Origin: an uncultured Bacilli bacterium
Lineage (GTDB): Bacteria; Bacillota_I; Bacilli_A; RF39; UBA660
Length of the DNA: 64,000 bases
Direction of reading: 5' to 3'
Assembly (NCBI GenBank): GCA_947581835.1
Contig: CANPVV010000003.1
Span: forward strand, 643 to 64,642
This document shows positions 23,360 through 56,102 of this stretch, piece by piece. How positions within the stretch are numbered: the stretch's first letter is position 1; each line of letters begins with the position of its first letter. The notes under the pieces were generated by a model. It was not told the origin of the DNA and searched no databases. It saw nothing but the letters and a program-made list of their open reading frames with translations. Made by a program: the position numbers and the translations under genes.

Positions 23360-23475
23360 AAAAGCGGTGATTCCCACCATAAGAGGAACTTAATAAAAGC
23401 GGTGATTCCTACCATTAAAAGGAACTTAATAAAAGCGGTGATTCCCTACCATAAAAGGGACTTAAAAAAGTGATT
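23360..23475 (+). ncRNA. Type III antitoxin RNA (ToxI/antiQ-like): three full repeats plus a partial one
   Basis: Direct repeats at 23360-23394 (35 nt), 23395-23430 (36 nt) and 23431-23466 (36 nt). Consensus AAAAGCGGTGATTCCnACCATnAAAGGnACTTAAT, with a truncated fourth copy (AAAGTGATT). The GGTGATT...ACC core resembles ToxI. The array lies immediately upstream of a ToxN/AbiQ homolog. Confidence 0.78.
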
Positions 23476-23499
23476 AGAGAGCTTACTCTAATCTTTTTT
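23472..23499 (+). terminator. Rho-independent terminator between antitoxin repeats and toxin gene
   Basis: Perfect 8-bp stem GATTAGAG (23472-23479)/CTCTAATC (23486-23493) with a 6-nt loop, followed by TTTTTT (23494-23499). Confidence 0.7.
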
Positions 23500-23500
23500 C

Positions 23501-23529
23501 TTGACAATAAGTTATGGTAATGATATACT
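23501..23529 (+). promoter_or_regulatory. Candidate second promoter directly upstream of toxN
   Basis: TTGACA (23501-23506), 17 nt, then TGATATACT (extended -10, TATACT at 23524-23529). Confidence 0.4.
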
Positions 23530-23555
23530 CACTTTAGTAAAGGAAGTGGTATATT

Positions 23556-24056
23556 TTGAAACATTTTATATTGGTGCAAGTAGATTATATGTACTGCAAT
23601 TATTTAAGAAAATTTGATAGTAAAGTTTGTTATAATTTTGGCTTTAAAAGAATTAGACCTTTTGTAGGAGTTTTATTTGAGGTTAATAATATTTTATATT
23701 TTGCTCCTTTATCTAGTCCTAAAGAAAAGCATTTAAAAATGAAAAATACTATTGATTTTATAAAGATTGATAATGGAAAGTTAGGAGCTATTAATTTTAA
23801 TAATATGATACCAGTTATTGAAGGGTGTTACGAAATAATTGATTTAAATAATAAAAATAATGAGAAATACGCTCATATGCTTAATATGCAATTGTTTTGG
23901 CTTAATAGAAATTATGATAGAATTAAATATAAAGCTAAAACTTTGTATAATAAATATATAAATAATACTTTAGATAAAAGAATTAAAAATAGATGCTGTA
24001 ACTTTCCTTTATTAGAAGAAAAATGTTTAGATTATCATGTAAAAATAAAAGTGTAA
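23556..24056 (+). CDS. Type III toxin-antitoxin system endoribonuclease toxin, ToxN/AbiQ family
   Basis: 166 aa with a TTG start after AAAGGAAGTGG. It aligns by eye with Pectobacterium ToxN: YL.KFD.KV; F.G.....(Y)FAPLSSPK.KH versus YLAPLTSPKKWH; G.INFNNMIPVIE versus GLINLKFMIPIIE; CNFPLLEEK versus CNFSLLEEK. Confidence 0.9.
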   Translation: MKHFILVQVDYMYCNYLRKFDSKVCYNFGFKRIRPFVGVLFEVNNILYFAPLSSPKEKHLKMKNTIDFIKIDNGKLGAINFNNMIPVIEGCYEIIDLNNKNNEKYAHMLNMQLFWLNRNYDRIKYKAKTLYNKYINNTLDKRIKNRCCNFPLLEEKCLDYHVKIKV

Positions 24057-34396: not shown

Positions 34397-35425
34397 TTAG
34401 GAATTTAGAGCTTCTGTTATTAGTTTATCTAAAAGATTGGAGTAAGAAATATTTTTTTCAGCAAATAATTTAGGATACATACTAGTTTTAGTAAACCCAG
34501 GAATAGTATTTATTTCATTTAGATAAATTTCATCACCGATTAGAAAGAAATCACAGCGACTATAACCATGACATTCGAGAATTTGGAATATTTTAAGGGC
34601 AGTATTTTGGATTTTAGTGGTTAAATTTGGGGATAGAGAAGCGGGAATAATGGTGTTATTGTCTTTACTTTGATATTTAGCAAAAAAGTCATAGAAAGAA
34701 GAGTTTACCTCACCAATGGGGGATGCGATAAGTTGATGGTTAGTTTCTAATATAGCACATTCAAGTTCACGACCAGAAGAAGCTGCTTCAACAAGTAAGC
34801 GATTATCAATATTAAAAACTAAAGGTATTTTAGATTCTAATTCTTCATAATTAGAAATTTTAAAAACACCAAGGGAAGAACCACTGTTGGAAGGTTTAAT
34901 ATAGAAAGGATAGTTAAAATTAGAAATAATAGTTGTAAGCATTTCTTTTTTAGTTAGACTTTTATCTTCATAGATATATTCATTATTGTATTTAGTAAAA
35001 TAGATAAAAGGCATAGTTTTAATATTATTATGTTCTAAGATGATTTTGGTTAGAATTTTATCCATAGTAACTAAACTAGGACGGGGTTTATTACTAAGAT
35101 ATTTTATATTTAGAAATTCAAAAATACTTGCTAGAAGACCATCTTCACCGTTTTTGCCATGAATAGCAATCCAGACTAAATCAAATTGTTTAAGATAGGT
35201 GAAAGGCTCTTTAATGGGGGTTAAATTGGTGGGTAACTCCCCTACTTCTAAGCTGGTAATTTCTTCAACGGGTTTATTCCAAAGATAAAATAAGTTGGTT
35301 TTATCTAAATAAATGGGTGTTATTGTATATTTTCTTTTATCTAAGTTACTTATAATTGAAGTAGCTGATGCGATAGATACTTCATGTTCATTTGATGAAC
35401 TACCAAATAAAATGGCGATTTTCAT
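34397..35425 (-). CDS. ddl: D-alanine--D-alanine ligase
   Basis: 342 aa ATP-grasp protein with Ddl motifs (FGSSSNEHEVS, HGKNGEDG, EINTIPGFT). Confidence 0.93.
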   Translation of the reverse strand: MKIAILFGSSSNEHEVSIASATSIISNLDKRKYTITPIYLDKTNLFYLWNKPVEEITSLEVGELPTNLTPIKEPFTYLKQFDLVWIAIHGKNGEDGLLASIFEFLNIKYLSNKPRPSLVTMDKILTKIILEHNNIKTMPFIYFTKYNNEYIYEDKSLTKKEMLTTIISNFNYPFYIKPSNSGSSLGVFKISNYEELESKIPLVFNIDNRLLVEAASSGRELECAILETNHQLIASPIGEVNSSFYDFFAKYQSKDNNTIIPASLSPNLTTKIQNTALKIFQILECHGYSRCDFFLIGDEIYLNEINTIPGFTKTSMYPKLFAEKNISYSNLLDKLITEALNS

Positions 35426-35439
35426 TGTTTATTCCTCCT

Positions 35440-36801
35440 TTAAATGATATTTTTAATAATATCAGAAAAACCCATACCGTGACTTGCTTTAATTAAGAAA
35501 ACATCATTTTTCTTTTTAATATTATTTATGTATTTTATGGCTTCTTCATTACTGTTAAAGTGAAAACTGTTGTTTTTATTGAAACCATCTTGAATAGCTA
35601 TTTTATTGATATTAGAGGAAAGATTACCGATAGTTATTAAAAGGTCGAGATTATTTTGATAGATTAAGTGGCCGATATCTTCATGAATTTTAGGTCCATA
35701 TTCACCTAGTTCTAAGATATCTCCTAAGACGGCAATTTTACGGCCTTTAAATGATTTTAATATTTCAAGATTGTAGTAGACAGAATCATAGCTAGCATTG
35801 TAAGAATCATCAATTACTAAATAATTTTCACAAGATATTAGTTCCATGCGGTGAGGCTCCGGTTTTAGTTCTTTTAGTTTTTTTATAACAGATTCATTGT
35901 TTAGGTTAAATAAATCACTGATAATAAATGCCACAAGAGAGTTATATATAAAGTGTTTTCCTAAAATATTTAGAGATACAGCATGGTTTTTATAAGTAAA
36001 ATTGCTTCCTTTTTCGTCATACATAATATTGGTTGCCAGATAGTTACTAGGATTTTCAAGACCAAAGGTAATAATATCGTATTTATCTTTATTCTCTTTT
36101 GCCCATTTATGAAGAAGGTCATTGTCATTATTGATAATTATAGGTCCACTTAGCCCTTCTAAAATTTCTAGTTTTGCTTTTAGGATATTTTCTCTGGAGC
36201 CAAGATAACCAATATGAGCAGTACCAATGTTGGTTATTACAGCATGAGTGGGTTTAGCAATACTGGTTAGAAGACTTATTTCCCCTTTTTGATTCATACC
36301 CATTTCTAAAACAATTATTTCTTCGGTAGTATGAGACAAAATAGTAAGAGACAAGCCAACACTGGTATTTAGGTTGCCTGAGGTTTTTAAAACTTGGTAT
36401 TTGGTACTTAATACTTCGCTGATTATATTTTTAGTACTGGTTTTCCCTACACTTCCGGTTACGGCAATAACAGGAATATTTAGAGTGGCTCTTTTTCTTT
36501 TAGCAAGATTGATTAAATAGGTAGTGGTATTATCTACAATTATAATATTTAGAGGTTTATTTTTTAAAAAGTCGGTATCTAGGGGAATGTTGTTTAAGAT
36601 TAGAGTTTTAGCTCCTTTTTTTATGGCTTCTTTATAAAAAGTGCTGCCATCATAAACTTCACCTTTAATCCCAATGTAAGTATCATTAGGTTTAAGAGTT
36701 CTGGTATCTATAGAAAGATTGGTTAAAAAATCATTTTCATTTCCTTGATAGAGATAAGCATTGTTTAAATTTAAAATATCTTTTATTTGCATTAAAATCA
36801 C
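35440..36801 (-). CDS. murF: UDP-N-acetylmuramoyl-tripeptide--D-alanyl-D-alanine ligase
   Basis: 453 aa Mur ligase with the ATP site VTGSVGKTSTK and DDSYNAS. Adjacent to ddl. Confidence 0.92.
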   Translation of the reverse strand: MILMQIKDILNLNNAYLYQGNENDFLTNLSIDTRTLKPNDTYIGIKGEVYDGSTFYKEAIKKGAKTLILNNIPLDTDFLKNKPLNIIIVDNTTTYLINLAKRKRATLNIPVIAVTGSVGKTSTKNIISEVLSTKYQVLKTSGNLNTSVGLSLTILSHTTEEIIVLEMGMNQKGEISLLTSIAKPTHAVITNIGTAHIGYLGSRENILKAKLEILEGLSGPIIINNDNDLLHKWAKENKDKYDIITFGLENPSNYLATNIMYDEKGSNFTYKNHAVSLNILGKHFIYNSLVAFIISDLFNLNNESVIKKLKELKPEPHRMELISCENYLVIDDSYNASYDSVYYNLEILKSFKGRKIAVLGDILELGEYGPKIHEDIGHLIYQNNLDLLITIGNLSSNINKIAIQDGFNKNNSFHFNSNEEAIKYINNIKKKNDVFLIKASHGMGFSDIIKNII

Positions 36802-43070: not shown

Positions 43071-43727
43071 TTATGTAAGTAAATTAATTAAAGACATAAA
43101 TTTATCACTAAAAATAAAGACAAGAGCCATACTTCCTACTAAGAAGGGACCAAAGGGAACTTCTTTATTTTTACTTAGCATAATAGATGCTAAAGCATAA
43201 GGAAGAGCTAAGAGAGAAGAAAATATAATAGAGATTAATCCTAGTCTTAGACCAAGAATAGTTCCAATTACAAAGGATAGTTTAATATCGCCGCCACCTA
43301 GAGCTTCTCTTTTAAATATTTTTTTACCAATTAAGCCTACAATAAACATGAAAGCCATTAAAAATAAGCCACTTAGAATACTTAAACCCATAGTTTTTAA
43401 ATCAAAATAATAAGCTTTTAAAGAAAGAATGATTAGACTTGAAATAACTAAAGGACTATCTAAAATAATTAAATATTTAAAGTCAGTTACAAAGATAATT
43501 ATTACTAAAGCACTAACTATGACAGAGGCAAAAAACTCATAACTAAAGTCAAAATAATAGTAACTTATTAAAAGAGCAACGGAGTTTAGAATACCAATAA
43601 AGAGATTTAAAATCCAAGAATTGGGAGTAACCTCAGGTATATCAGGTATTAATAAAGGTAATTTCTCAGCGATTAGAGAATAAGCAAGACCTAGAGTAAA
43701 ACCTATTAAAAATATCATTATAATCAT
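43071..43727 (-). CDS. Prepilin (type IV leader) peptidase, A24 family, without the N-terminal zinc-ribbon region
   Basis: 218 aa polytopic protein with the A24 motif ALGGGDIKL and a C-terminal PFGPFL. Confidence 0.85.
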   Translation of the reverse strand: MIIMIFLIGFTLGLAYSLIAEKLPLLIPDIPEVTPNSWILNLFIGILNSVALLISYYYFDFSYEFFASVIVSALVIIIFVTDFKYLIILDSPLVISSLIILSLKAYYFDLKTMGLSILSGLFLMAFMFIVGLIGKKIFKREALGGGDIKLSFVIGTILGLRLGLISIIFSSLLALPYALASIMLSKNKEVPFGPFLVGSMALVFIFSDKFMSLINLLT

Positions 43728-43736
43728 ATTATCACC

Positions 43737-45281
43737 CTATCTAATTTCCCCATATAGACTAAACATAGGAATAACAACAGCAAGTATTATTATACCAACA
43801 ATTAAAGCAAGTAAGACTATCATGATGGGTTCTAAGAAACTTTTTAAATTGGTTACTCGACTTTTATGTAAGTCATTATAATAGCTAGCTACTTTTTCAA
43901 GCATTAATGAGAGTTCACCAGTTGATTCACCTGTTACTATCATGTAGTAAGCAACGTCAGGAACACACCATTTATTATAGAAAGATAAAGATATTTTTTC
44001 GCCACGAGCAATATTACTCATAGTTTCTAACATTATATCTTTATATACTTCATTATTGGTTATATTAGTTAGTATTTCCATAGAACTGGTAATATAAACA
44101 CTATTTCTTAGAAGAGAGGCAAAAGTTTTAGTAAAAATAGTTAGTTCATGATAGATAATTATTTTACCAAAAAATGGAATTTTCATACCGATAGTTTGAA
44201 TTAGTTTGCGAAATAGTTTGGATGATTTATATAAGAAAAGAAGTGTTAGAATAACTATTAGTGCAATGAGTAAAATAAGATTAAGATGAGTTGTTATATA
44301 TTTACTTAGATTAATAATACTTAGAGTAAAACCACTTACAGTTATACCAGCTTGATTGTAGACTTTAATAAATTCAGGGATAACATAGACCATAATAAAA
44401 GTTAAGACAGCTAGAGCAAAAACAATTAAGATAGTGGGATAGATTATAGCACTAAGCATTTCTTTGCGAGTTTTATCTATTTCGGTATAGTATGAGGCCA
44501 TATCATCAAGAGTTTTAATTAATTCACCAGTAGCTTCCGCAGATTTAATCATATTGATTAATAAAGGAGGAAAGGTTTTTCCTTGATTTTCAAGAGCTTT
44601 ACTAAATGATTCACCTAAAGTTAAATCATAGGAGATAGCCCGATATAATTTACTTTTAGTAGGGTCTTTAGAGGCTTGTTTAGTCATAATATTAATTGTA
44701 TCATTTAGAGTGATACCAGCTTTTAGATAGGTAGCAACTTGAGTTAACCAAAATATTAAGTCTTTAACACTTAATTCTTTTTCTGAATCAAACCCTAGTT
44801 TTTTTAAGAGATTAGCTATTTTAGCTTTTTTAATACTGTAGACGTCAATCCCTTCATTAGCAAGAAAGTTATGAAGAGTTACTTTATTAGTAGCACTCAT
44901 CATACCTTTTACTTTTTTATTGTTTTGATCAGTTCCATAATAGTAATAGTAAGATTTAACTACTTTGCGAGATTTTATTTCTTTTTGCATTTCTCTTATT
45001 AGTTCTTGTTTTTCATAGGCAATGTGTTTGCGTTCTTCTAAAGACATTACAATAGGTTCTTCTTCTTTTTTAGTTTGAGTTTCTTCTTCAGTGTTTAGAT
45101 TAACACTTTGTCTTTCAATACGATTAAATTCTTTACGAGCTTTAGAATAAGTAATCATATTATAAAATACGTCAAAAAAGACAAATTTTAGACCTATAAA
45201 GACGTGTTTAAAGAAATCTATTACGAGAAGTATAGGAGCTAATAAAATTGTATATATATTTAATTTTTGGTTAGGTTTCAT
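43737..45281 (-). CDS. Type II secretion system F / PilC / ComGB-family platform protein with an N-terminal extension
   Basis: Two GspF repeats (...AGITLNDTI...LGESFSKAL...PPLLINMIKSAEATGEL... and ...ARGEKISLSF...VAYYMIVTGESTGELSLML...). An extra ~130 aa, including a TM segment, sits at the N-terminus. Confidence 0.85.
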   Translation of the reverse strand: MKPNQKLNIYTILLAPILLVIDFFKHVFIGLKFVFFDVFYNMITYSKARKEFNRIERQSVNLNTEEETQTKKEEEPIVMSLEERKHIAYEKQELIREMQKEIKSRKVVKSYYYYYGTDQNNKKVKGMMSATNKVTLHNFLANEGIDVYSIKKAKIANLLKKLGFDSEKELSVKDLIFWLTQVATYLKAGITLNDTINIMTKQASKDPTKSKLYRAISYDLTLGESFSKALENQGKTFPPLLINMIKSAEATGELIKTLDDMASYYTEIDKTRKEMLSAIIYPTILIVFALAVLTFIMVYVIPEFIKVYNQAGITVSGFTLSIINLSKYITTHLNLILLIALIVILTLLFLYKSSKLFRKLIQTIGMKIPFFGKIIIYHELTIFTKTFASLLRNSVYITSSMEILTNITNNEVYKDIMLETMSNIARGEKISLSFYNKWCVPDVAYYMIVTGESTGELSLMLEKVASYYNDLHKSRVTNLKSFLEPIMIVLLALIVGIIILAVVIPMFSLYGEIR

Positions 45282-45335
45282 ATAATCACTCTACTTTAGT
45301 TAAATTATAGCATAATTTTTAGTATTATAAAATAA

Positions 45336-45369
45336 CAAAAAGAAAGAATGAAGAAAAAACTTCATTCTT
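45336..45369 (-). terminator. Rho-independent terminator separating the large paralog genes from the pilC-like gene
   Basis: 10-bp stem AAGAATGAAG (45344-45353)/CTTCATTCTT (45360-45369). On the minus strand it is followed by TCTTTTTGTT. An extended -10 (TGCTATAAT, minus strand) lies just downstream. Confidence 0.55.
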
Positions 45370-45393: not shown

Positions 45394-47166
45394 TTAGTCT
45401 AATTGAACTACGTATGGGTTAGTACTTGTACCCTTTTCGCCACTTGTACCATCTCCATCTGTAGTAAACTTGGTATTAGCTTTGAGATTTATTACTGGGC
45501 GCACACCTATATCAGTGTCAGACACGTTGTCGCCGTAGAGGTGACCATCACCATATACGCAGGATACACTAGCATAACCGCCGTTAAAGCTATGCGGAGA
45601 CATTGTCCAGTATTCTGCACCTGTATATAGCCAGTATCCGTAGTTATTAGCATTTGTTCCTCCTGCAAATTCTACTTCATCGGCTGTGATTAGGCCTACT
45701 GGATATGTTAATCTGCCATTTCCAACACCTTGTTTATCTCCATCCATTGTAAACAAGTCATTTGCACTTTGTGTACAATTAAATGTTGGTATATGTTTTT
45801 TTACCGTTCTTATATATGGTCCGTAATATGTTTGGGTGGTTCCAAAACCATATTTAGTTTTATCTGGTTTAGAAGTTGCACTTACTCCACTATATTGATA
45901 TGGTGTTCTATCATTGCAAAATCCTACACTTCCATCTAGTTGGTCTGTATAAGCAGTCAAGTTTGTACTATACCAATTTTCTATTGCTGTTTTAATAGTG
46001 CTTGGATTCGTATTTGTATGTGCATCTGTATAATTTCCTGATGTGTCTCCATACATATATCCTACATATTTATTACTCTTAGCAATTTCATTAAATGTAT
46101 TTATATTTATTTGACTATCTATTTTATCTGCCCATCTCCCATCAGTTGGTTTATTACTTCCAGAATAAATCAATCTTATGCTTCCATTTCCATTTATTCG
46201 GATTATTCGCCACCACTTATTAGCAAATTTTACCCAATTATTATTTACTGTTCCTCGGTAGTAATATGTTGTCCCAAAATCGTCTTCTCCACTATATAAA
46301 CCACTTTCTGATGAATCACAATCGCCATCGGTATGAGTTTCATTATTTGTATTAGGCTCGCAAACTATTTTATTAAATTCACTTTCATTTAGTGTAGATA
46401 ATGTACTCGTATCAATCCCTAAATCTGCTAAAGTTTTTTCTGATGGAATAACTTTATAATATAAATAACAAGCTGTGCCAGTTTTAGTTAAATTATCAAT
46501 TATTAATTGCTCTGTTTCTTTATTCCAACTTGGAATTGCATTATTACTGCAAATGCTTTTTTCAGCATCAATAGTATATCCCGTTTGGGGAATATCACCA
46601 TTTTCTATTTTTTTATATGTTCCTTCTTCATTTTCTATATAGGCTGCTAAAATATTTATTTTAGGAGTTTTATTATTTTCTTCTAATTTTATATTACTTT
46701 TAAATTCTCCTTCTTTATTTTTATTATTATAATCTAATATTAGATAATAATAGTTTGTTTTACTAGTAACAGAAGAATTTATATATTCTTCTTCTAATAG
46801 ATTTACTGTTTGTTCTTTTTCTTCTTTGTTTATTTTTCCTTCATTTAGTGATTTTAGTTTTTCTATTTTGGATTTACTTTTTATTAATTCATTTGATTTG
46901 TATATTTTATAGTTTATATTGTCATATAAACTATTGGTTATATTCCAATTTAAATTATAACCAATTAATTCATTATCTCCAGTTGCTATAACTTTAATAG
47001 TTAATATATCTTTATTTAAATTACTTTCAACTTTAATATCACTATTTTTAATATTAAGAGATAAAGTATTAAATTTTATATTTTCTTTAAATATATTATT
47101 TTTAATAATAAATATAGAAACTATACTTATTAAAATAATAATTATTAAAATATTTTTATTTTTCAT
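45394..47166 (-). CDS. Large secreted/anchored protein, paralog B (590 aa)
   Basis: N-terminal hydrophobic anchor. It shares three blocks with the upstream paralog: ATGDNELIGYNLNW; DDFGTTYYYRGTVNNNWVKFANKWWRIIRINGNGSIRLIY; and GFCNDRTPY...GLITADEV...YWTMSP...GVRPVINLK. Confidence 0.6.
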   Translation of the reverse strand: MKNKNILIIIILISIVSIFIIKNNIFKENIKFNTLSLNIKNSDIKVESNLNKDILTIKVIATGDNELIGYNLNWNITNSLYDNINYKIYKSNELIKSKSKIEKLKSLNEGKINKEEKEQTVNLLEEEYINSSVTSKTNYYYLILDYNNKNKEGEFKSNIKLEENNKTPKINILAAYIENEEGTYKKIENGDIPQTGYTIDAEKSICSNNAIPSWNKETEQLIIDNLTKTGTACYLYYKVIPSEKTLADLGIDTSTLSTLNESEFNKIVCEPNTNNETHTDGDCDSSESGLYSGEDDFGTTYYYRGTVNNNWVKFANKWWRIIRINGNGSIRLIYSGSNKPTDGRWADKIDSQININTFNEIAKSNKYVGYMYGDTSGNYTDAHTNTNPSTIKTAIENWYSTNLTAYTDQLDGSVGFCNDRTPYQYSGVSATSKPDKTKYGFGTTQTYYGPYIRTVKKHIPTFNCTQSANDLFTMDGDKQGVGNGRLTYPVGLITADEVEFAGGTNANNYGYWLYTGAEYWTMSPHSFNGGYASVSCVYGDGHLYGDNVSDTDIGVRPVINLKANTKFTTDGDGTSGEKGTSTNPYVVQLD

Positions 47167-49029
47167 TTAATTTACCTCCACTTCAAATGGATTATTTGCT
47201 GTACCGTCTCCGCCAGCTTTAAATGGTGTCTCGGCTTTTAAATTTATTACTGGGCGTATACCAATACCAGTGGTATTAACGCTGTCGTAGGAGATAGCTC
47301 CAAGATCATACACAAAAAATATCTGGGCATATTGGCTAGAACTAACATCAAAGCTATATGGTGATATTGTCCAATATTTGTTATTTGTATATAAATAATA
47401 ACCTGTATTTGATGTAAGTTCATACGCTCCTGCATACATTACTTCATCCGCTGTGATTAACCCTACCGGATTTTCTAATGCTTGATTACCATTTTCATCG
47501 TCATTGGTTATTGTAAATAAATCATTTTGCTGTGGACACTTAAATATTGGTTTATGTGTTTTAAAAGCCCTTATATATGCTCCATAAGACGTTGTAATAT
47601 TTTTATAACCGTGACCACTAGTATCCAATTTAGAAGTAGCTAAACTTCCATCATAAGGAGTTCTATCATTACAAAAGCCTGTTGCTCCATCTATATCATT
47701 TTCATATTGTTGTAAATTTTCTAAATACCAAGAATCTAACTCTGTAAGTATTTTACTTTTAGTGGCATTTGTATGGGCATCTGCATATTTAGTTGCTCCT
47801 GTAGTTCCATATTTAAATCCAACATAAGTATTATCAGAATAATGACTATTGTCATTATATAGAATATTTGACTTAGCTAAACCATTTCCATTTGCATCAG
47901 TTCCAACGTAAATTAATCTTATAGTTCCGTTTCCATTTATTCTTACTATTCGCCAAAATTTATCTGCAAATTTTACCCAATTATTTTCTCCTTTTCCTCT
48001 AAAGTAATAAGTATCTCCATAGTCATCTTGTCCTTTGCAAAGTAAGGCTTTATTACCTTCTATATCAGTTATATTTGTTGCCTCTCCTGTGGTTTCATCT
48101 ATTGTTGGGCAATCATTTTCAGATAGGGTTAGATTAGGAAATTTTGCAAAGGTATCTTTTGCGGTTGTTCTATTTTTAAAATATAGTTCACACATGGTTC
48201 CGGATTTGGTATAGTTACTAAAACTTAGTTTATTAGTGTTATAATTCCAATTTGGAATTGTTTCATTATTGCAAGTAGTTCTTTCCATGTCTAAAATTTG
48301 ATCTTTGGGTAATGTCTCATCTGTTTGTTCTTCATATGAACCATCTTCTTGTTGGACATAGACAGCCATTTCAATATCGGCTTCTATATTACTTGCTTCT
48401 ATTTTAACTTCACCGCTAAAGGTTTGTTCACTATCCTTATTTTGAGATTTGTCTTCATTTGGATATTCTAAAACTATGTAATAGTAGGCTGTTTCGCCTG
48501 GATTTGGGAGAGAATTTATAAATTGGTCTTGGGCTATATATACTTTTTTTGTATCTGCACTAGTTTCAATTGTTGCTTCCCCTACTGCTGTTCCTAGTTG
48601 GTCTATGTTGTTTATGCTGCATTCTTCATAAGCCATAATACCTTTACTGACTACTTTTTGTTTTTTATTACAGTTGGCTGATATATTTAGTTCAGTATTT
48701 GGTTTATCTGATTTATAAACTTTTAAATTCAGAGAAGTAATTAAATTGTTTGTTCCTTCCCAGTATATATTAAAAGGAATTAGTTCATTATCGCCGGTTG
48801 CAGTTACTTCTAAATATGAGACTATTTTATGTCCGGGAAGCATATCGGGACTATCAATTTCTATATTACCTTTTGACGTAACAGTTGAATTTTTAATTGC
48901 TGTTGCAGTTGTTCCTTTGGTTAATGCTCCATCACCTTTAGTTATGTTTCTACCTGTAAAATAGGCAAAAGTTAGACTTATGCCAATTAATAATATAAGA
49001 GTATATACTCCCACTTTTTTCTTATCCAT
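47167..49029 (-). CDS. Large secreted protein, paralog A (620 aa), with a TasA/CalY-class (SipW-type) N-terminal signal
   Basis: The N-terminus MDKKKVGVYTLILLIGISLTFAYFTGR resembles SipW-dependent signal peptides (..GGGTFAYFSD in camelysin). A beta-rich N-domain follows (PGHKIVSYLEVTATGDNELI). The C-terminal ~300 aa are paralogous to 45394-47166. Confidence 0.6.
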   Translation of the reverse strand: MDKKKVGVYTLILLIGISLTFAYFTGRNITKGDGALTKGTTATAIKNSTVTSKGNIEIDSPDMLPGHKIVSYLEVTATGDNELIPFNIYWEGTNNLITSLNLKVYKSDKPNTELNISANCNKKQKVVSKGIMAYEECSINNIDQLGTAVGEATIETSADTKKVYIAQDQFINSLPNPGETAYYYIVLEYPNEDKSQNKDSEQTFSGEVKIEASNIEADIEMAVYVQQEDGSYEEQTDETLPKDQILDMERTTCNNETIPNWNYNTNKLSFSNYTKSGTMCELYFKNRTTAKDTFAKFPNLTLSENDCPTIDETTGEATNITDIEGNKALLCKGQDDYGDTYYFRGKGENNWVKFADKFWRIVRINGNGTIRLIYVGTDANGNGLAKSNILYNDNSHYSDNTYVGFKYGTTGATKYADAHTNATKSKILTELDSWYLENLQQYENDIDGATGFCNDRTPYDGSLATSKLDTSGHGYKNITTSYGAYIRAFKTHKPIFKCPQQNDLFTITNDDENGNQALENPVGLITADEVMYAGAYELTSNTGYYLYTNNKYWTISPYSFDVSSSQYAQIFFVYDLGAISYDSVNTTGIGIRPVINLKAETPFKAGGDGTANNPFEVEVN

Positions 49030-49227
49030 TTTTAAATTCTCCCTTTACCTTTTAACATATTACAACTTTTTTAAGATTTTTTCATTACATTCGACAAATG
49101 TTGTCAAAAATAATTTGTTATATTATTTGTAATATTTTCGTTATATATTTATATTACAATAATTATTAAAAAAATTCAATATTATTTAGATTATTTATTT
49201 TAAAAATAATTTAATAAATTATCTTTT

Positions 49228-49324
49228 GTTGCCGAATGGGTTGCTGCAAAGTTGCCGTAAAGTAGCCGAAAGAAATGATAGTGCCCGAATAGTGACCGAA
49301 AGTGACCGAAATGTGCCCGAAAAA
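49228..49324. repeat. Array of eight ~11-nt tandem repeats, consensus GTNNCCGAAA
   Basis: Copies start at 49228 (GTTGCCGAATGG), 49240 (GTTGCTGCAAA), 49251 (GTTGCCGTAAA), 49262 (GTAGCCGAAA), 49281 (GTGCCCGAATA), 49292 (GTGACCGAAA), 49302 (GTGACCGAAAT) and 49313 (GTGCCCGAAAAA). They form a GC-rich island in a very AT-rich divergent intergenic region. Confidence 0.7.
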
Positions 49325-49388
49325 CTTTTTATTAGTTATTTTAAGTACTTTTATTAGTTTTTACATATATTATATTAGGTGGTTGTCT

Positions 49389-49661
49389 ATGTTTGGAGCA
49401 CCAGTTCAAAGTGGTTTAACATTTAGTAAAGTTCTTAGTGGAATATCTAAGACTTTAAGTGTAGCTAATCAGGTTATTCCCCTTTATAGAGAGGCAAAAC
49501 CTATGATTAATAATGCTAAAAATATATTGAGTGTGTTAAGAGAAATGAATACAGGTAGTAGTAATAAAGATAGTGAAAAAGCAAAAACTAAAGAAATTAA
49601 AAAAGATTCAATAAAGAAGACTAAGACTAATTATAGTAATAGTCCTACTTTCTTTCTTTAA
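49389..49661 (+). CDS. YqfQ/VrrA-like small protein
   Basis: ATG 49389 after TAGGTGG is preferred to GTG 49302, which lies inside the repeat array. The pattern LTFSKVLSGISKTLSVANQVIPLYREAKPMINNAKNI resembles the YqfQ C-terminal region. Its position next to trmK-sigA-dnaG matches Bacillus synteny. Confidence 0.5.
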   Translation: MFGAPVQSGLTFSKVLSGISKTLSVANQVIPLYREAKPMINNAKNILSVLREMNTGSSNKDSEKAKTKEIKKDSIKKTKTNYSNSPTFFL

Positions 49662-53242: not shown

Positions 53243-53794
53243 TTAAAACTTTACATTTTCTATACACTTTTTTAACTTACAATAGTAAATAGTTTGAGTA
53301 TTCTTGTTATCCTTAGTACAAGTGATTAAGGTTAGCATTTGATTACTAATAGTTTTTAAATAAAGAGTTCCAGTTTTAGCTTGATTTTCTATTTCACTTA
53401 TTTCATAAATATATTTATGATTATTATAGAAAAAAGTGATTTCTTCCCCTATTTCTAATTTATAAAGGTTTTTAAAATAGGCATGAAGACCAGTTCCAGA
53501 GTGTCCGGCGATAATAATATTACTTACAGGATTATCAGGCATGGTGGAACCCTTAATTAATTCTAAGTTTTTATTGACATTGTTTTCTTTAGAATTAAGG
53601 GGATAGATAGCCTCTTTTAGATTTATTTTAGGAATACTAAGTATGCCATAGTAAGTGTTATTAGATAGCTTAGTGGTTATTTCTTGTGATTTATTTTGGA
53701 TAGTAATTTGTTCTTTTTCATAATAGCTTACTGGAATAAATAGAGCAAGAAATAAACAGATTAAACTTAGTATTTTAAGAGAGCTTTTTAGCAT
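53243..53794 (-). CDS. Sortase (pilin/adhesin-dedicated; class not assignable)
   Basis: 183 aa with an N-terminal anchor, catalytic His (IIAGHSG) and the TLxTC motif (LTLITCT). It overlaps the adhesin gene by 20 nt. Confidence 0.85.
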   Translation of the reverse strand: MLKSSLKILSLICLFLALFIPVSYYEKEQITIQNKSQEITTKLSNNTYYGILSIPKINLKEAIYPLNSKENNVNKNLELIKGSTMPDNPVSNIIIAGHSGTGLHAYFKNLYKLEIGEEITFFYNNHKYIYEISEIENQAKTGTLYLKTISNQMLTLITCTKDNKNTQTIYYCKLKKCIENVKF

Positions 53795-56102
53795 ATTTAA
53801 AAATTAGTAAACTAACTAAAAAGAAAAACATACTTAACATACTTATCTTATGGTAAGCATTTAGACTGGTTAGAGGAACAGTTATTAGATGGCGATTGTT
53901 TAGAAGAATAGTAGTTTTAATACCATCTTTTATTTCGATAGGTATTTCTTCGGAATTTAGTTCATAATCAGTTAGAGTTAATAATTCTTTTAGATAGTAA
54001 TTGCCCACCTTTAGATTATCAATAGTGATTAGACCTTCTTCGTTAGTTATATATTCACCGATTAAATCTTTATCAGCATTATAAAGACCAAAATTGACAC
54101 CCGAGAGAGGTTCTTTGGTTAGTTCATCTTGTTTTTCGATAGTTAGAGAACCCATAAGAGGATAATTGTAAACAGTTAGTTTTACTTCTAAATTTTCTTT
54201 AGAAATAGTAAAGGTTAAAGGTTCTTCTAATATTTTATAGCCTTGGGGTGGAGTTATTTCTTCTAAAGAGTAGGTACCAAAAGGAATATTATCAAGAGTT
54301 AAAAGGCCATCAGTAAGTTCAAATAAAGTGGTACCATTGAGGCTTAAATATTCATTAGTTGTGGTGTTTTTGATTTTAAACGTAACTTGAGATGGAATAA
54401 GCTCATCGGTTTCTTTATCCCTTTTTTCAAGTGTTAGGCTCCCTTTCATTAAAGTGTTGTAAATAGTTAGTTCTACTTGCTCCCCTTCTTTGGTTATATT
54501 AAAAGTTATTGGTTCGTTAGTACTTAATTCATAGTTTGGGGGAATTTCAACTTCTTCAAGTAAATAGGTGCCATAAGGAATTTTGGAAAGCTCTAGCACT
54601 CCATTAGTTAGGTGGAAAGTATCCATACCAGAGATAGTTAAATATTGGTTGGTGGTTAAATTTTTGATTTTAAAAGCAACTGGTTCAGTTATTAATTCTT
54701 TAGTATCAAAATCTTTTTTAAATAGTTTTAGAGAGCCAGTAATTTCTTTATTTTTTAGAGTAAAATTTAGATATTCAGCACTATCTGGCGTAAGAGTAAA
54801 CTTAAAATCGGGCATTAGATTGTAGCCTTCGTTTCCCTTAGTTTGTTTTAAGAGATAGTTTCCTACCCATAACTGTAGAGAAAACTTACCAAATTCATTG
54901 GTTTTAAAAGTGGTTATAAGTTCATTGGTGTCTTCATTGTAAAGCTCAAATTCAGCATTAGGCTCTAAGTTGTAATCACCATTTAGATGGGCTAAGTATT
55001 TTTCAAAATTCACAGTTATTAGATAAGGGTCTTCAGGTAGTTTAATTTGGGTATCACTTGTAACATTAAAACAGATATACTCCGTATTTAGTTTATAACC
55101 ATATGGAGCTTTAGTTTCTTTTAAACAGTAATTGTTGGGTTCTAAATCTTCCATTAGAAACTCCCCTTTTTTATTGGTAGTAAGGGTGCGATAAACATTG
55201 GTTAAATCAGACTCATAATAAAGATTGTACTCGGCACCTTTTAAAGAAAGAGGAATAGAGGTAGAAGGTTCTTTTTTAGCAGTTACTTGAGGATTTCTGA
55301 TATTTAAATCAATATAGGTGTTGGTAAAAGAAAAATAACCACGACGCATTACAGCTTGAGTTTTACCATCATAAAATATTAATGGGTGTTTGTTAGTATC
55401 TAAGTTGTAGACTATATCAATACGATAGGAACCAGTTTTGTTAAAAGAGAGATTTAGAGTGTTGCCACTTGCATCAGCATTGATACTGCGATTGTCATAA
55501 GATAGTCTAAATCTATCTAAAACTTGATTAGAATCGGTTAAAGATAGAGTTTCATTGTAAAGAACATTGTAATCTATGGCTCCAAAATCTGGAGTGATAT
55601 TAGCAGTGGCTATATCAGTTTTTAAATCTGATAGTTCTTCTTCATATTTGGCAATTGGTTCTTCAGTGATGGGATCGATAAAATAAACCTCACCTATATC
55701 TTGAAGAAGATAGTCCCAAATAAGAAATTGGGTGGCAACATACCATTTAAGGTCGGTACGGTCATTGTGGCCATAACCAAAATAAGCAGCTTTAGTTATA
55801 TAATCCCAATCAGATTCAGTAACATTGATACCAACGTCTCTGATATCATAGTAGACCTCAAAATCTCCTTCTTCTAAAGGAATACCAGGCTCAATACAGT
55901 AAACTAATTCATCCGTGGTACTATCTTTAATTTCAAACATATCCTTTTTCTTGCCTTCAGGAAAACGAGGCGTTTTTAAAAATAGTTTGATATTAGGTAT
56001 AGGATCACCTAATTTGATATGATTAGTACTAGCTAGAATATTACTAGGAAAAAAGAAAAAAGTGAAAAGAAAAATTAAAGTAAGAAATATTTTTTTATAC
56101 AT
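53775..56102 (-). CDS. Cell-surface adhesin: N-terminal thioester domain, at least 5 SpaA/CnaB-type isopeptide repeats, C-terminal anchor
   Basis: Signal peptide. Thioester-domain motifs YCIE (VYCIEPG) and TQFLIW. Repeats of the type GSLTLEKRDKETDELIP..VTFKIKN....GTYSLEEITPPQGYK. The C-terminus is ..VPLTSLN.., then a hydrophobic segment, then KYAKK. Confidence 0.8.
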   Translation of the reverse strand: MYKKIFLTLIFLFTFFFFPSNILASTNHIKLGDPIPNIKLFLKTPRFPEGKKKDMFEIKDSTTDELVYCIEPGIPLEEGDFEVYYDIRDVGINVTESDWDYITKAAYFGYGHNDRTDLKWYVATQFLIWDYLLQDIGEVYFIDPITEEPIAKYEEELSDLKTDIATANITPDFGAIDYNVLYNETLSLTDSNQVLDRFRLSYDNRSINADASGNTLNLSFNKTGSYRIDIVYNLDTNKHPLIFYDGKTQAVMRRGYFSFTNTYIDLNIRNPQVTAKKEPSTSIPLSLKGAEYNLYYESDLTNVYRTLTTNKKGEFLMEDLEPNNYCLKETKAPYGYKLNTEYICFNVTSDTQIKLPEDPYLITVNFEKYLAHLNGDYNLEPNAEFELYNEDTNELITTFKTNEFGKFSLQLWVGNYLLKQTKGNEGYNLMPDFKFTLTPDSAEYLNFTLKNKEITGSLKLFKKDFDTKELITEPVAFKIKNLTTNQYLTISGMDTFHLTNGVLELSKIPYGTYLLEEVEIPPNYELSTNEPITFNITKEGEQVELTIYNTLMKGSLTLEKRDKETDELIPSQVTFKIKNTTTNEYLSLNGTTLFELTDGLLTLDNIPFGTYSLEEITPPQGYKILEEPLTFTISKENLEVKLTVYNYPLMGSLTIEKQDELTKEPLSGVNFGLYNADKDLIGEYITNEEGLITIDNLKVGNYYLKELLTLTDYELNSEEIPIEIKDGIKTTILLNNRHLITVPLTSLNAYHKISMLSMFFFLVSLLIFKYAKKLS

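What the first reader, a model, noticed from the sequence alone, without database searches (positions are those of the whole stretch)
45394..49029. Two tandem paralogous giant secreted proteins with a TasA/SipW-class N-terminus and a novel conserved C-terminal module
**Paralog A (620 aa).** It starts MDKKKVGVYTLILLIGISLTFAYFTGR. The ..TFAYFT.. ending after a hydrophobic core is the hallmark of SipW-dependent signal peptides (TasA, camelysin). The following ~180 aa look like a TasA-type beta-sandwich (..LPGHKIVSYLEVTATGDNELI..).

**Paralog B (590 aa).** It shares the ATGDNELI block but has a plain anchor.

**Shared C-terminal region (~300 aa), highly conserved between the two.**
- DD(F/Y)G.TYY(F/Y)RG..NNWVKFA.K(F/W)WRI(I/V)RINGNG(S/T)IRLIY
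- AHTN, GFCNDRTPY and GLITADEV
- The ending YWT(I/M)SP....G(I/V)RPVINLK

That ending resembles the ..YWWLRSP...GVRPAL.. module of many Firmicute surface proteins. I recall this as DUF6273, but the number is unverified.

**Open question.** The same N-terminus can also be read as a class III (prepilin-like) signal, KKKVG|VYTLILLIG. A prepilin peptidase and a PilC-like platform protein are the next genes downstream, whereas no SipW is in the window. A TasA-like fibre or adhesin fused to a large head domain and possibly handled by type IV pilus-type machinery would be undescribed.
Basis: partly seen in the sequence, partly recalled or inferred. Interest (0 to 1): 0.7.

Follow-up and report, generated by a model that had tools for sequence, protein, structure and literature searches.

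The report
Tandem lectin-headed surface proteins, not pili
Two neighbouring genes encode members of a very large, unnamed family of exported surface proteins of gut Bacilli, with a signal peptide like those of the biofilm-fibre protein TasA, a remotely TasA-related stalk and a lectin-like binding head; the pilus genes next door are a coincidence.

Summary
Two abutting paralogous ORFs (620 and 590 aa, 39% identical overall, 50% in the last ~290 aa) lie at 45394-49029 on the minus strand, and the quoted motifs are there. They are mid-sized, not giant.

The C-terminal module is not new. It is an enlarged C-type-lectin-like domain of the DUF6273 (PF19789) kind, and its only confident structural match is the DUF6273 N-terminal domain of the Thomasclavelia ramosa IgA peptidase.

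The N-terminus of A is a Sec signal with the site S/T-x-A|Y-F, kept in 52 of 54 relatives. Its first beta-sandwich is homologous (hhalign 96%) to ~200-aa proteins that sit beside a SipW-type peptidase and weakly match the TasA/camelysin Pfam family. Fold search and direct profile comparison do not confirm TasA.

The prepilin/type IV pilus reading fails:
- the proposed Gly is present in 2 of 54 relatives;
- none of 83 related loci has pilC/pilD;
- a terminator and a promoter separate paralog B from pilC.

The family is huge (about 10,800 clusters at 50% identity) and multicopy in gut Bacilli MAGs. Most likely these are surface-displayed ligand-binding proteins. It is an uncharacterised variant of known parts, of modest interest.

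The parts
47167..49029 (-). Paralog A, 620 aa. Sec signal with predicted SPase I/SipW-type site TFA|YF (residues 1-22), conserved N-terminal segment (23-35), beta-sandwich 1 (about 36-215), small Ig-like domain (about 216-290), variable linker (291-327), DUF6273/C-type-lectin-like C-module (328-620).
   Evidence: ORF; AF2 model with pLDDT 84.9 and its domain boundaries; motif conservation; domain homologies.
48964..49029 (-). Signal peptide of A: n-region MDKKK, h-region VGVYTLILLIGISL, c-region T-F-A, predicted cleavage before Y23.
   Evidence: Family logo: position 20 is S41/T8/A4, position 22 is A52, position 23 is Y52, position 24 is F52 (of 54); Gly7 occurs in only 2 of 54.
48385..48924 (-). 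Beta-sandwich 1 of A (residues about 36-215; PGH loop, ATGDNELI, Cys120/Cys137, YYYIVLEYPN..QN). Homologous to small SipW-linked TasA-like proteins.
   Evidence: hhalign A2 vs A3 probability 96.4%, E=1.4e-9, 165 columns; A3 vs Pfam PF12389 in 6 of 30 members; Foldseek gives generic sandwiches only.
48160..48384 (-). Middle small beta domain of A (residues about 216-290) with conserved Cys253/Cys280.
   Evidence: AF2 strands E219-286; conserved Cys; present without sandwich 1 in many relatives.
47167..48048 (-). C-terminal module of A (residues about 328-620): enlarged C-type-lectin-like, DUF6273-related head.
   Evidence: Foldseek hit 9qa6 (IgA peptidase with DUF6273 NTD), probability 0.87, 320 columns; PF19789 hits in 21 of 54 relatives, profile positions 126-171 only; pLDDT mostly above 90.
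45394..47166 (-). Paralog B, 590 aa. Plain N-terminal hydrophobic anchor without the AYF site or the PGH loop, shortened sandwich 1 (44 residues of A missing), middle domain, C-module 50% identical to that of A.
47164..47185 (-). A/B junction: a GGAGG RBS inside the end of A, with the TAA stop directly abutting the ATG of B (translational coupling).
   Evidence: Sequence read.
45344..45369 (-). Intrinsic-terminator-like hairpin (10-bp perfect stem, T-run) 25 nt after the stop of B; it ends the A-B unit.
45304..45331 (-). Promoter-like element with extended -10 (TTTATA-16-TATAAT) in front of pilC.
   Evidence: 10 of 12 matches, TG present. This is a consensus match only.
43071..45281 (-). Neighbours that are not part of the system: PilC/GspF-like platform protein (43737-45281) and A24 prepilin peptidase (43071-43727).
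   Evidence: Pfam and NCBIfam hits; absent from all 83 related loci.

Best explanation
**What it is.** A and B are a translationally coupled pair from a very large, multicopy family of exported cell-surface proteins of gut-associated, low-GC Bacilli.

**Export (inferred).** Each protein is exported by Sec. A carries a cleavable signal whose c-region, (S/T)-x-A|Y-F, is the camelysin/TasA-like motif cut by SipW-type (or ordinary type I) signal peptidase. B has lost that site and probably stays tethered by its N-terminal helix.

**Architecture (shown by model and homology).** Outside the membrane there is a stalk of one or two disulfide-braced beta domains. The first is remotely related to TasA-like matrix proteins. 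The stalk carries a ~290-residue enlarged C-type-lectin-like head of the DUF6273 kind.

**Function (inferred).** The head most likely binds a glycan or protein ligand on host, mucus, food particles or other microbes. The many divergent paralogs per genome would give a repertoire of binding specificities.

**What it is not.** The adjacent pilC/pilD genes form a separate transcription unit and are functionally unrelated to the pair.
For: Genes and pairing.

Family size and multicopy distribution:
- More than 1200 homologs.
- 10,768 / 7,231 / 3,887 representative clusters at E<=1e-3 / 1e-10 / 1e-30.
- At least 583 hits in species-representative genomes. The top 79 loci are almost all uncultured gut Bacilli / 'Mycoplasma sp. 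CAG' / Tenericutes MAGs, with 8-9 or more loci in single MAGs.
- Tandem arrays in at least 8 loci.

Signal peptide: conserved K-rich n-region, 12-14-residue h-region, G18, S/T/A at -3, A at -1, then Y-F.

SipW in the lineage: L008 3963-4718 scores TIGR02228 at 92.9 bits (cutoff 51.85) and the SipW model NF046067 at 91.6 bits. It has a 66%-identical orthologue in L084, each next to a ~200-aa protein with the same SFAYF motif.

Stalk:
- AF2 model pLDDT 84.9 (full length) and 81.2 (N region).
- A2 vs A3 hhalign probability 96.4%.
- Cys pairs 120/137, 253/280 and 453/498 are each at least 90% conserved, which fits an extracellular protein.

Head:
- Foldseek match to 9qa6, probability 0.87, 320 columns.
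- That domain is described as an enlarged C-type-lectin-like domain annotated DUF6273 (PMC12237041, PMC12402451).
- PF19789 is the only recurrent Pfam family (21 of 54), and four relatives pass its gathering score.
- DUF6273 domains of phage receptor-binding proteins also have a C-type-lectin fold (PMC10743442), and phage proteins annotated as DUF6273-containing appear among the viral fold hits.

Separate unit from pilC: terminator and promoter.
Against: - No binding activity or ligand is known for any DUF6273 domain. The IgA-peptidase NTD is dispensable for catalysis and has no assigned role (PMC12237041).
- Neither window paralog reaches any Pfam or NCBIfam threshold, and the Pfam match in relatives covers only the last ~46 of 172 profile positions.
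- The C-module profile finds nothing in PDB by sequence. The Foldseek E-value for 9qa6 is only 9.5e-3.
- Cleavage of A's signal is predicted, not shown. AF2 draws residues 3-30 as one helix, so A could also stay anchored.
- No sipW is in the 64-kb window, and the rest of the genome is unavailable.
Confidence: 0.7

Rival explanations
1. TasA-like adhesive fibre. After SipW-type cleavage, the conserved N-terminal segment of A (YF..x..GxGA) acts as a donor strand that inserts into sandwich 1 of the next subunit, as in TasA, BsaA and archaeal bundling pili. This would build a filament decorated with lectin-like heads. B has an anchor but no donor segment, so it would serve as the membrane-tethered base (TapA-like).
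For: - The segment 23-35 is highly conserved (Y23 and F24 in 52 of 54, G32 in 53 of 54, G34 in 52 of 54), yet AF2 leaves residues 26-40 disordered (pLDDT below 50). That is what is seen for donor strands in monomer models.
- Sandwich 1 is homologous to small SipW-linked proteins whose top Pfam family is TasA/camelysin.
- A3 aligns colinearly with a TasA family profile, with the hallmark motifs in register.
- An A-type gene followed directly by a B-type anchored gene recurs in L022.
- Operons with several TasA-family paralogs have been proposed to make heteropolymers (PMC11580942).
Against: - The direct profile comparison A2 vs TasA family is not significant (probability 0.1%). A3 vs TasA family reaches only 7.9%.
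- Foldseek of the isolated N region does not list TasA (8aur, 5of1) or bundling pilins in its top 50, and all hits have TM about 0.2.
- Most family members (49 of 67 complete ones) lack this N-domain altogether and carry only an anchor plus the head, which suits monomeric display better.
- A 400-residue cargo on every subunit has no precedent in TasA-type fibres.
- No multimer modelling could be run.
Confidence: 0.12
2. Type IV pilus-type substrate. A is a prepilin-like protein cleaved after Gly7 by the neighbouring A24 peptidase and assembled or exported with the PilC platform. A softer version: A and B are Sec/SipW substrates pushed through the wall by a T4P-like piston, as for C. perfringens BsaA/BsaC.
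For: - Gene adjacency in this window, with pilC starting 112 bp after B on the same strand.
- The sequence KKKVG|VYTLILLIG superficially fits a class III signal.
- There is a precedent for T4P-assisted export of SipW-dependent TasA-like proteins (PMC11580942).
Against: - Gly7 is present in 2 of 54 relatives and position 7 is usually I/L/M. There is no Glu at +5, and B has no Gly at all.
- tblastn with the window's PilC and PilD finds no homolog in 83 related loci covering 1.17 Mb.
- The nearest relatives have other neighbours: dnaJ/radical-SAM and relA/ftsAZ.
- A terminator hairpin and a promoter-like site lie between B and pilC.
- No PilB Walker A and no GFTLxE prepilin are in the window.
- The model shows a beta-sandwich after a disordered linker, not a pilin alpha-beta roll.
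- In C. perfringens the dependence did not include pilC (PMC11580942).
Confidence: 0.04
3. Hypervariable receptor-binding proteins of a mobile element: DGR targets or prophage tail-fibre-like proteins, as for many DUF6273 proteins.
For: - DUF6273 domains are DGR targets and phage receptor-binding modules (PMC10743442, PMC11792537).
- Weak viral fold hits include phage proteins annotated as DUF6273-containing.
- The family is multicopy and divergent.
Against: - There is no template-repeat copy of either gene in the window, and no reverse-transcriptase-like ORF.
- The neighbours are core genes: dnaG, rpoD, trmK, tig, lon, murF, ddl.
- The C-terminal motif region, where variable regions of DGR-targeted lectin folds usually lie (my knowledge), is among the best conserved parts.
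Confidence: 0.03

Closest known systems
N-terminal domain (DUF6273, enlarged C-type-lectin-like domain) of the Thomasclavelia ramosa IgA metallopeptidase IgAse/ThomasA (PDB 9qa6; PMC12237041, PMC12402451)
   Same: It is the only high-probability structural match of the full model (Foldseek probability 0.87, 320 aligned columns). It has the same size class (~290 residues, about twice a canonical C-type lectin domain), comes from a gut Bacillota surface protein, and has the same Pfam affinity (PF19789).
   Different: Sequence similarity is not detectable by profile search. There it sits N-terminal to a protease and is sortase-anchored; here it is the C-terminal head of an N-terminally anchored or secreted protein with no enzyme domain. 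Whether the structural zinc site (Asp/His/Cys) is kept here is untested, although His (AHTN), Cys and Asp (GFCNDR) are conserved. Its function is unknown in both.
DUF6273 (PF19789) domains of phage receptor-binding proteins and DGR targets (e.g. tentaclins; PMC10743442)
   Same: C-type-lectin-like fold. The C-terminal YW..SP...GVRP motif matches profile positions 126-171. A role as an exposed binding module is likely.
   Different: There is no DGR or phage context here. Only the last quarter of the Pfam model matches, and the module is much larger.
TasA / CalY (camelysin, PF12389) and C. perfringens BsaA: SipW-processed biofilm fibre proteins assembled by donor-strand exchange (PMC9674648, PMC11580942)
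   Same: The signal peptide ends in a (T/S)-F-A-Y-F-type motif, as I recall for CalY. A Pro-Gly loop about 40 residues after the site and a ..DQN.. strand at the end of the sandwich align colinearly for the bridging family A3. SipW-type peptidase genes neighbour the bridging family. Genes occur as tandem paralogs.
   Different: No significant direct sequence-profile or fold match exists for the window proteins. These proteins are 2-3 times longer, with two extra domains. No sipW is in the window. Polymerisation is untested.
Type IV pilins / ComG pseudopilins with PilC-PilD machinery
   Same: Only a basic N-terminus followed by a hydrophobic helix, plus gene adjacency in this one genome.
   Different: No conserved Gly at -1, no Glu at +5, no pilin fold, no co-occurrence, and a separate transcription unit.

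Membership tests
DUF6273 (Pfam PF19789) | Score at or above the Pfam gathering threshold (23.5 bits) against the PF19789 model | tested here: not met
   Paralogs A and B have no hit at E<=0.1 or E<=1. Among relatives, 21 of 54 hit at E<=1 and four pass the threshold (23.6-35.8 bits). A and B therefore belong to a sister branch that the model barely reaches.
DUF6273 (Pfam PF19789) | Match along the whole domain model (172 positions) | tested here: not met
   All matches cover only profile positions about 119-171 (the YW..SP..GVRP end).
DUF6273 (Pfam PF19789) | C-type-lectin-like fold shared with solved or modelled DUF6273 domains | tested here: met
   Foldseek match to 9qa6 with probability 0.87 over 320 columns, E=9.5e-3. 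The matched domain is annotated DUF6273 and described as C-type-lectin-like (PMC12237041). The E-value is weak, so this counts as moderate support.
TasA/camelysin family (Pfam PF12389 Peptidase_M73) | Significant match to the PF12389 model or to a TasA family profile | tested here: not met
   A and B show no hit, even for the isolated N-terminal part at E<=10. A2 vs TasA gives probability 0.2% and A2 vs TasA family A4 gives 0.1%. The only link is indirect: A2 to A3 at 96.4%, and A3 to PF12389 in 6 of 30 members with best E=6.6e-6. A tandem partner of a relative, with an A3-like N-domain, hits at E=0.04 over profile positions 3-184 of 196.
TasA/camelysin family (Pfam PF12389 Peptidase_M73) | TasA jelly-roll fold recovered by structure search | tested here: not met
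   TasA entries 8aur and 5of1 are in the PDB sequence set searched, but they are not among the top 50 Foldseek hits for the full model or for the isolated N region. The best hits are generic sandwiches with TM about 0.2.
TasA/camelysin family (Pfam PF12389 Peptidase_M73) | Fibre formation by donor-strand exchange | not testable with these tools
SipW-cognate signal peptide class (NCBIfam TIGR04088; accession from memory) | Signal peptide ending in a (T/S)-x-A-(Y/F)-F-type motif, recognised by the curated model | tested here: inconclusive
   The motif T-F-A-Y-F is present and conserved (A22, Y23 and F24 each in 52 of 54). No NCBIfam model hits the whole protein or the 27-residue N-terminus; very short models are easily lost by HMMER's filters.
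SipW-cognate signal peptide class (NCBIfam TIGR04088; accession from memory) | A SipW/archaeal-type signal peptidase I encoded in the same genome | tested here: inconclusive
   None is found in the 64-kb window. One is present in related genomes: L008 (TIGR02228 at 92.9 bits, above the 51.85 cutoff) and L084. The window's genome could not be retrieved.
Type IV pilin / class III signal peptide substrates | Conserved Gly at -1 before the hydrophobic helix, usually Glu at +5 | tested here: not met
   Gly at position 7 occurs in 2 of 54 relatives and is absent in B. Position +5 is Ile in A.
Type IV pilin / class III signal peptide substrates | Genomic co-occurrence with pilB/pilC/pilD | tested here: not met
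   0 of 83 related loci (1.17 Mb) contain PilC or PilD homologs. The window has no PilB Walker A or canonical prepilin. A terminator and a promoter lie between B and pilC.
Type IV pilin / class III signal peptide substrates | Pilin fold (long alpha-1 helix packed on a beta-sheet) | tested here: not met
   In the model, helix 3-30 is followed by a disordered linker and an all-beta sandwich. There are no pilin hits in Foldseek.
DGR variable proteins | Template repeat/variable repeat pair and a reverse transcriptase nearby | tested here: not met
   blastn of both genes against the window finds only each other (65% identity), and there is no RT-like ORF.

The most novel reading that the evidence does not exclude
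A and B could form a TasA-type donor-strand-exchange fibre in which every subunit carries a lectin-like head. The conserved, model-disordered segment left after cleavage at TFA|YF would be the donor strand. The uncleaved paralog B would be the membrane-embedded base. That would be a modular 'sticky fibre' built by neither sortase, chaperone-usher nor type IV pilus machinery, and it would be widespread in uncultured gut Bacilli.
Probability: 0.12. Interest if true: 0.7.

Novelty: new variant of a known kind. Interest (0 to 1): 0.33.

Why it matters
- The family is very large (about 10,800 clusters at 50% identity). It is multicopy in poorly known, small-genome gut Bacilli, and it is essentially invisible to Pfam and NCBIfam.
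- These proteins are good candidates for how such uncultured organisms attach to host mucus, food particles or other microbes.
- A proper domain model for the ~290-residue head would annotate thousands of proteins, including giants with up to 12 copies.
- It would also give context to the unexplained DUF6273 domain of gut IgA peptidases.
- The link to SipW-type signal peptides extends the range of cargo associated with that peptidase.
- None of this overturns current understanding, and the pilus connection that made the finding look exciting is not real.

Tried and rejected
1. Pfam and NCBIfam on A and B gave no hits.
2. PDB sequence searches were uninformative. The single sequence found nothing useful. 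The N-domain profile found only a chance protein A motif. The C-module profile found nothing.
3. Foldseek of the full model and of the isolated N region did not return TasA or pilins. The viral library gave weak hits only.
4. Direct hhalign of the N-domain against TasA and against a 35-member TasA family alignment was not significant.
5. Prepilin reading: rejected on conservation, co-occurrence and transcription-unit evidence.
6. DGR or prophage origin: rejected, with no template repeat, no RT, and a core-gene context.
7. Attempts to identify the source genome, in order to look for sipW, pilB and pilins genome-wide, failed. Exact-sequence look-ups for A and for its closest NCBI homologs are not on record, and the cluster records carry no accessions.
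8. The repeat array upstream of A was tested against Rfam and against related loci, with no match.

Full report
**1. What is in the sequence.**

A is preceded by an AT-rich intergenic region and a GGGAG ribosome-binding site. The stop codon of A directly abuts the ATG of B, with a GGAGG inside the end of A, so the two are translationally coupled.

A and B are 39% identical over their full length (E=7e-117). By region the identity is:
- 33% in the first beta domain, where 44 residues of A are missing in B;
- 35% in the middle domain;
- 9% in the linker;
- 50% in the last ~290 residues.

All quoted motifs are present. The window is low in G+C (25-32%). The surroundings are core genes:
- dnaG, rpoD and a TrmK-like methyltransferase upstream;
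- a PilC-like protein, an A24 peptidase, trigger factor, Lon, MurF and Ddl downstream.

At 590-620 aa these proteins are not 'giant'.

**2. How large the family is, and where it lives.**

Neither protein matches any Pfam or NCBIfam model, yet homologs are abundant.
- More than 1200 were found in the word-indexed search.
- An exhaustive profile search of 1.84 billion representatives gave 10,768 clusters at E<=1e-3, 7,231 at E<=1e-10 and 3,887 at E<=1e-30.
- In species-representative genomes at least 583 stretches encode relatives. The best 79 loci come almost entirely from uncultured gut 'Bacilli', 'Mycoplasma sp. CAG' and 'Tenericutes' MAGs, with eight, nine or more loci in single MAGs.

Tandem arrays are common. 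Examples are three members in a row in L003, a pair in L085, and at least eight loci with two complete members.

The common denominator is the C-terminal module. Only 18 of 67 complete members in the fetched loci carry A's type of N-terminal domain. In some very long proteins the module is repeated up to 12 times (P0280, 4905 aa).

**3. Architecture.**

An AlphaFold2 model built on a 54-sequence alignment is confident (mean pLDDT 84.9). It shows:
- an N-terminal helix (residues 3-30);
- a disordered stretch (26-40, pLDDT below 50);
- an 11-strand beta-sandwich (about 36-212);
- a small beta domain (219-286);
- a variable linker;
- a ~290-residue alpha/beta domain (328-620, pLDDT mostly above 90).

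Each of the three domains has one Cys pair conserved in at least 90% of relatives (120/137, 253/280, 453/498). This fits disulfide-braced extracellular domains.

**4. The C-terminal module.**

- PF19789 (DUF6273) is precomputed for several homologs.
- It is the only recurrent Pfam family among relatives (21 of 54 at E<=1, best 1e-5).
- Four relatives pass its gathering score.
- The match covers only profile positions ~126-171, the YW..SP...GVRP end. A and B themselves do not hit.

In Foldseek against PDB, the only high-probability match of the whole model is 9qa6, the Thomasclavelia ramosa IgA peptidase (probability 0.87, 320 aligned columns, E=9.5e-3). Its N-terminal domain (residues 31-321) is annotated DUF6273. 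It is described as a C-type-lectin-like core enlarged to twice the normal size, with a structural zinc site. It has no assigned function and is dispensable for IgA cleavage (PMC12237041, PMC12402451).

DUF6273 domains of phage receptor-binding proteins and DGR targets are also C-type-lectin-like (PMC10743442). Weak viral fold hits include phage proteins annotated as DUF6273-containing. A profile of the module finds nothing in PDB by sequence.

I conclude that the module is a divergent, enlarged DUF6273-type lectin-like domain. It is not a new fold, but the current Pfam model hardly reaches this branch.

There is no DGR here. Neither gene has a template-like copy in the window, and there is no reverse transcriptase.

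**5. The N-terminus: signal peptide.**

Across 54 relatives the conserved pattern is as follows:
- a Lys-rich n-region;
- a 12-14-residue hydrophobic core;
- Gly18 in 47 of 54;
- Ser/Thr/Ala at position 20 in 53 of 54;
- Ala22 in 52 of 54;
- then Tyr23 and Phe24, each in 52 of 54.

This is a Sec signal with a textbook (-3,-1) type I signal-peptidase site, (S/T)-x-A|Y-F. From my own knowledge, it is also the motif of camelysin-type, SipW-processed proteins.

B lacks the site and has a plain 16-residue hydrophobic stretch followed directly by the first strand, so it is probably an uncleaved anchor.

SipW-type peptidases do occur in this lineage. L008 3963-4718 scores 92.9 bits on TIGR02228 (cutoff 51.85) and 91.6 bits on the SipW model NF046067, which is below that model's cutoff of 190. 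A 66%-identical orthologue is in L084. In both loci it lies in a cluster with a ~200-aa protein that begins ...G-x-SFAYF.

No such peptidase is in the 64-kb window. The rest of the genome could not be retrieved.

**6. The N-terminus: is sandwich 1 TasA-like?**

The direct tests fail:
- The N-domain profile (A2) finds no TasA in PDB sequences.
- hhalign of A2 against TasA (sequence verified identical to 8aur_A) gives a probability of 0.2%.
- hhalign of A2 against a 35-member TasA/CalY alignment (A4) gives 0.1%.
- Foldseek with the isolated N region (pLDDT 81) returns only generic sandwiches with TM about 0.2. TasA and bundling pilins are not in the top 50.

An indirect chain exists:
- A2 is clearly homologous to the small SipW-linked proteins (alignment A3): probability 96.4%, E=1.4e-9, 165 columns from AYF to the last strand.
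- The top Pfam family of A3 is Peptidase_M73 (TasA/camelysin), in 6 of 30 members with best E=6.6e-6.
- A3 aligns end-to-end and colinearly with the TasA family, with SFAYF over TWAAF, NA.PG over NLKPGD and DQN over QN. Support is weak (E=0.004, probability 7.9%).
- A tandem partner of a relative that fuses an A3-like domain directly to the lectin-like head hits Peptidase_M73 over profile positions 3-184 of 196 at E=0.04.

I therefore regard a remote TasA-superfamily origin of sandwich 1 as likely (roughly two in three) but not demonstrated.

**7. The pilus hypothesis.**

This reading can be set aside for the following reasons.
- The Gly of the proposed G|VYTLI site occurs in 2 of 54 relatives. 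There is no Glu at +5, and B has no Gly.
- tblastn with the window's PilC and PilD finds no homolog in 83 related loci (1.17 Mb of flanks). The closest retrievable relatives have quite different neighbours.
- Twenty-five bases after B's stop codon lies a 10-bp perfect hairpin followed by a T-run. After that come a promoter-like element with an extended -10 and an RBS for pilC. pilC-pilD is therefore its own unit.
- The window contains no PilB-type Walker A and no canonical prepilin.
- The model is not pilin-like.

In Clostridium perfringens, export of the SipW-dependent TasA-like BsaA oligomer and of BsaC is helped by type IV pilus genes. That work describes a T2SS-like push through the wall, not prepilin processing, and no dependence on pilC (PMC11580942).

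**8. Most likely mechanism.**

*Shown:*
- two coupled genes;
- a conserved Sec signal with an SPase I-type site in A, and a plain anchor in B;
- three disulfide-type domains;
- a lectin-like head of the DUF6273 kind;
- a large multicopy family in gut Bacilli;
- independence from pilC/pilD.

*Inferred:* A is exported and cut at Ala22|Tyr23 by a SipW-type (or ordinary) signal peptidase, while B stays membrane-tethered. The beta domains act as a stalk, and the head binds a glycan or protein ligand. The paralog repertoire would diversify binding specificity. Confidence is about 0.7.

*Main rival (about 0.12):* a TasA-type donor-strand fibre. The conserved segment 23-35, which the monomer model leaves disordered, would insert into the next subunit, and B would be the anchored base. 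This fits the conservation of that segment and the A-then-B gene order, which is also seen in L022. It lacks any direct structural support.

**9. Novelty and verdict.**

The parts are known kinds: a Sec/SipW-type signal, a TasA-related sandwich at best remotely, and a DUF6273 lectin-like domain. I did not find their combination, or the size of this unannotated family, described in the literature searched.

It is a new variant of a known kind and of modest interest. The feature that made it look exceptional, the pilus link, is coincidental.

Noticed in passing
window 49227-49321: About seven phased copies (period 10-11 bp) of TTCGGnCACT (read on the minus strand) form a G+C-rich island in the AT-rich divergent intergenic region between paralog A and a YqfQ-like ORF (49302-49661, +). 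The array is unique in the window, absent from the other fetched loci, and has no Rfam match. It could be a regulator-binding array for either gene.
   Followed up: partly
window 23360-24056: A 36-nt tandem repeat (3.1 copies, 23360-23470) lies directly upstream of a ToxN-family toxin gene (23556-24056; PF13958, E=1e-49). This is the layout of a type III toxin-antitoxin (ToxIN-like) system.
   Followed up: partly
window 53243-56102 (-): A sortase gene overlaps the end of a 775-aa protein with five SpaA-type domains and a thioester (TED) domain. This is a sortase-assembled pilus or adhesin locus, so the organism has a cell wall, which fits murF and ddl at 34397-36801.
   Followed up: no
window 43071-45281 (-): The PilC/GspF-like protein has a ~110-residue N-terminal extension and scores below every NCBIfam equivalog cutoff. 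The A24 peptidase is short (218 aa) and matches only the peptidase domain in Pfam. No PilB ATPase or canonical prepilin gene is in the 64 kb, so the pair is an 'orphan' here.
   Followed up: partly
L008 375-4718 and L084 10001-13800: A conserved cluster in related MAGs: a ~200-aa TasA-like protein with an SFAYF signal, then a 725-924-aa protein, then a SipW/archaeal-type signal peptidase with a long Lys-rich tail. In L008 the large protein consists of DxNGDGKPDINID-type repeats that look calcium-binding. This resembles a tasA-sipW matrix operon in small-genome gut Bacilli.
   Followed up: partly
P0280 (4905 aa), P0281 (3528 aa): The ~300-residue C-module occurs 8-12 times in single giant proteins, so it is also used as a repeated unit, not only as a terminal head.
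   Followed up: no
L003 8425-13158: Three family members lie in a row, each with a different N-terminal part (A3-like sandwich only; A-type sandwich plus middle domain; an unrelated short N-domain) and the same C-module. This shows domain shuffling around a constant head.
   Followed up: partly
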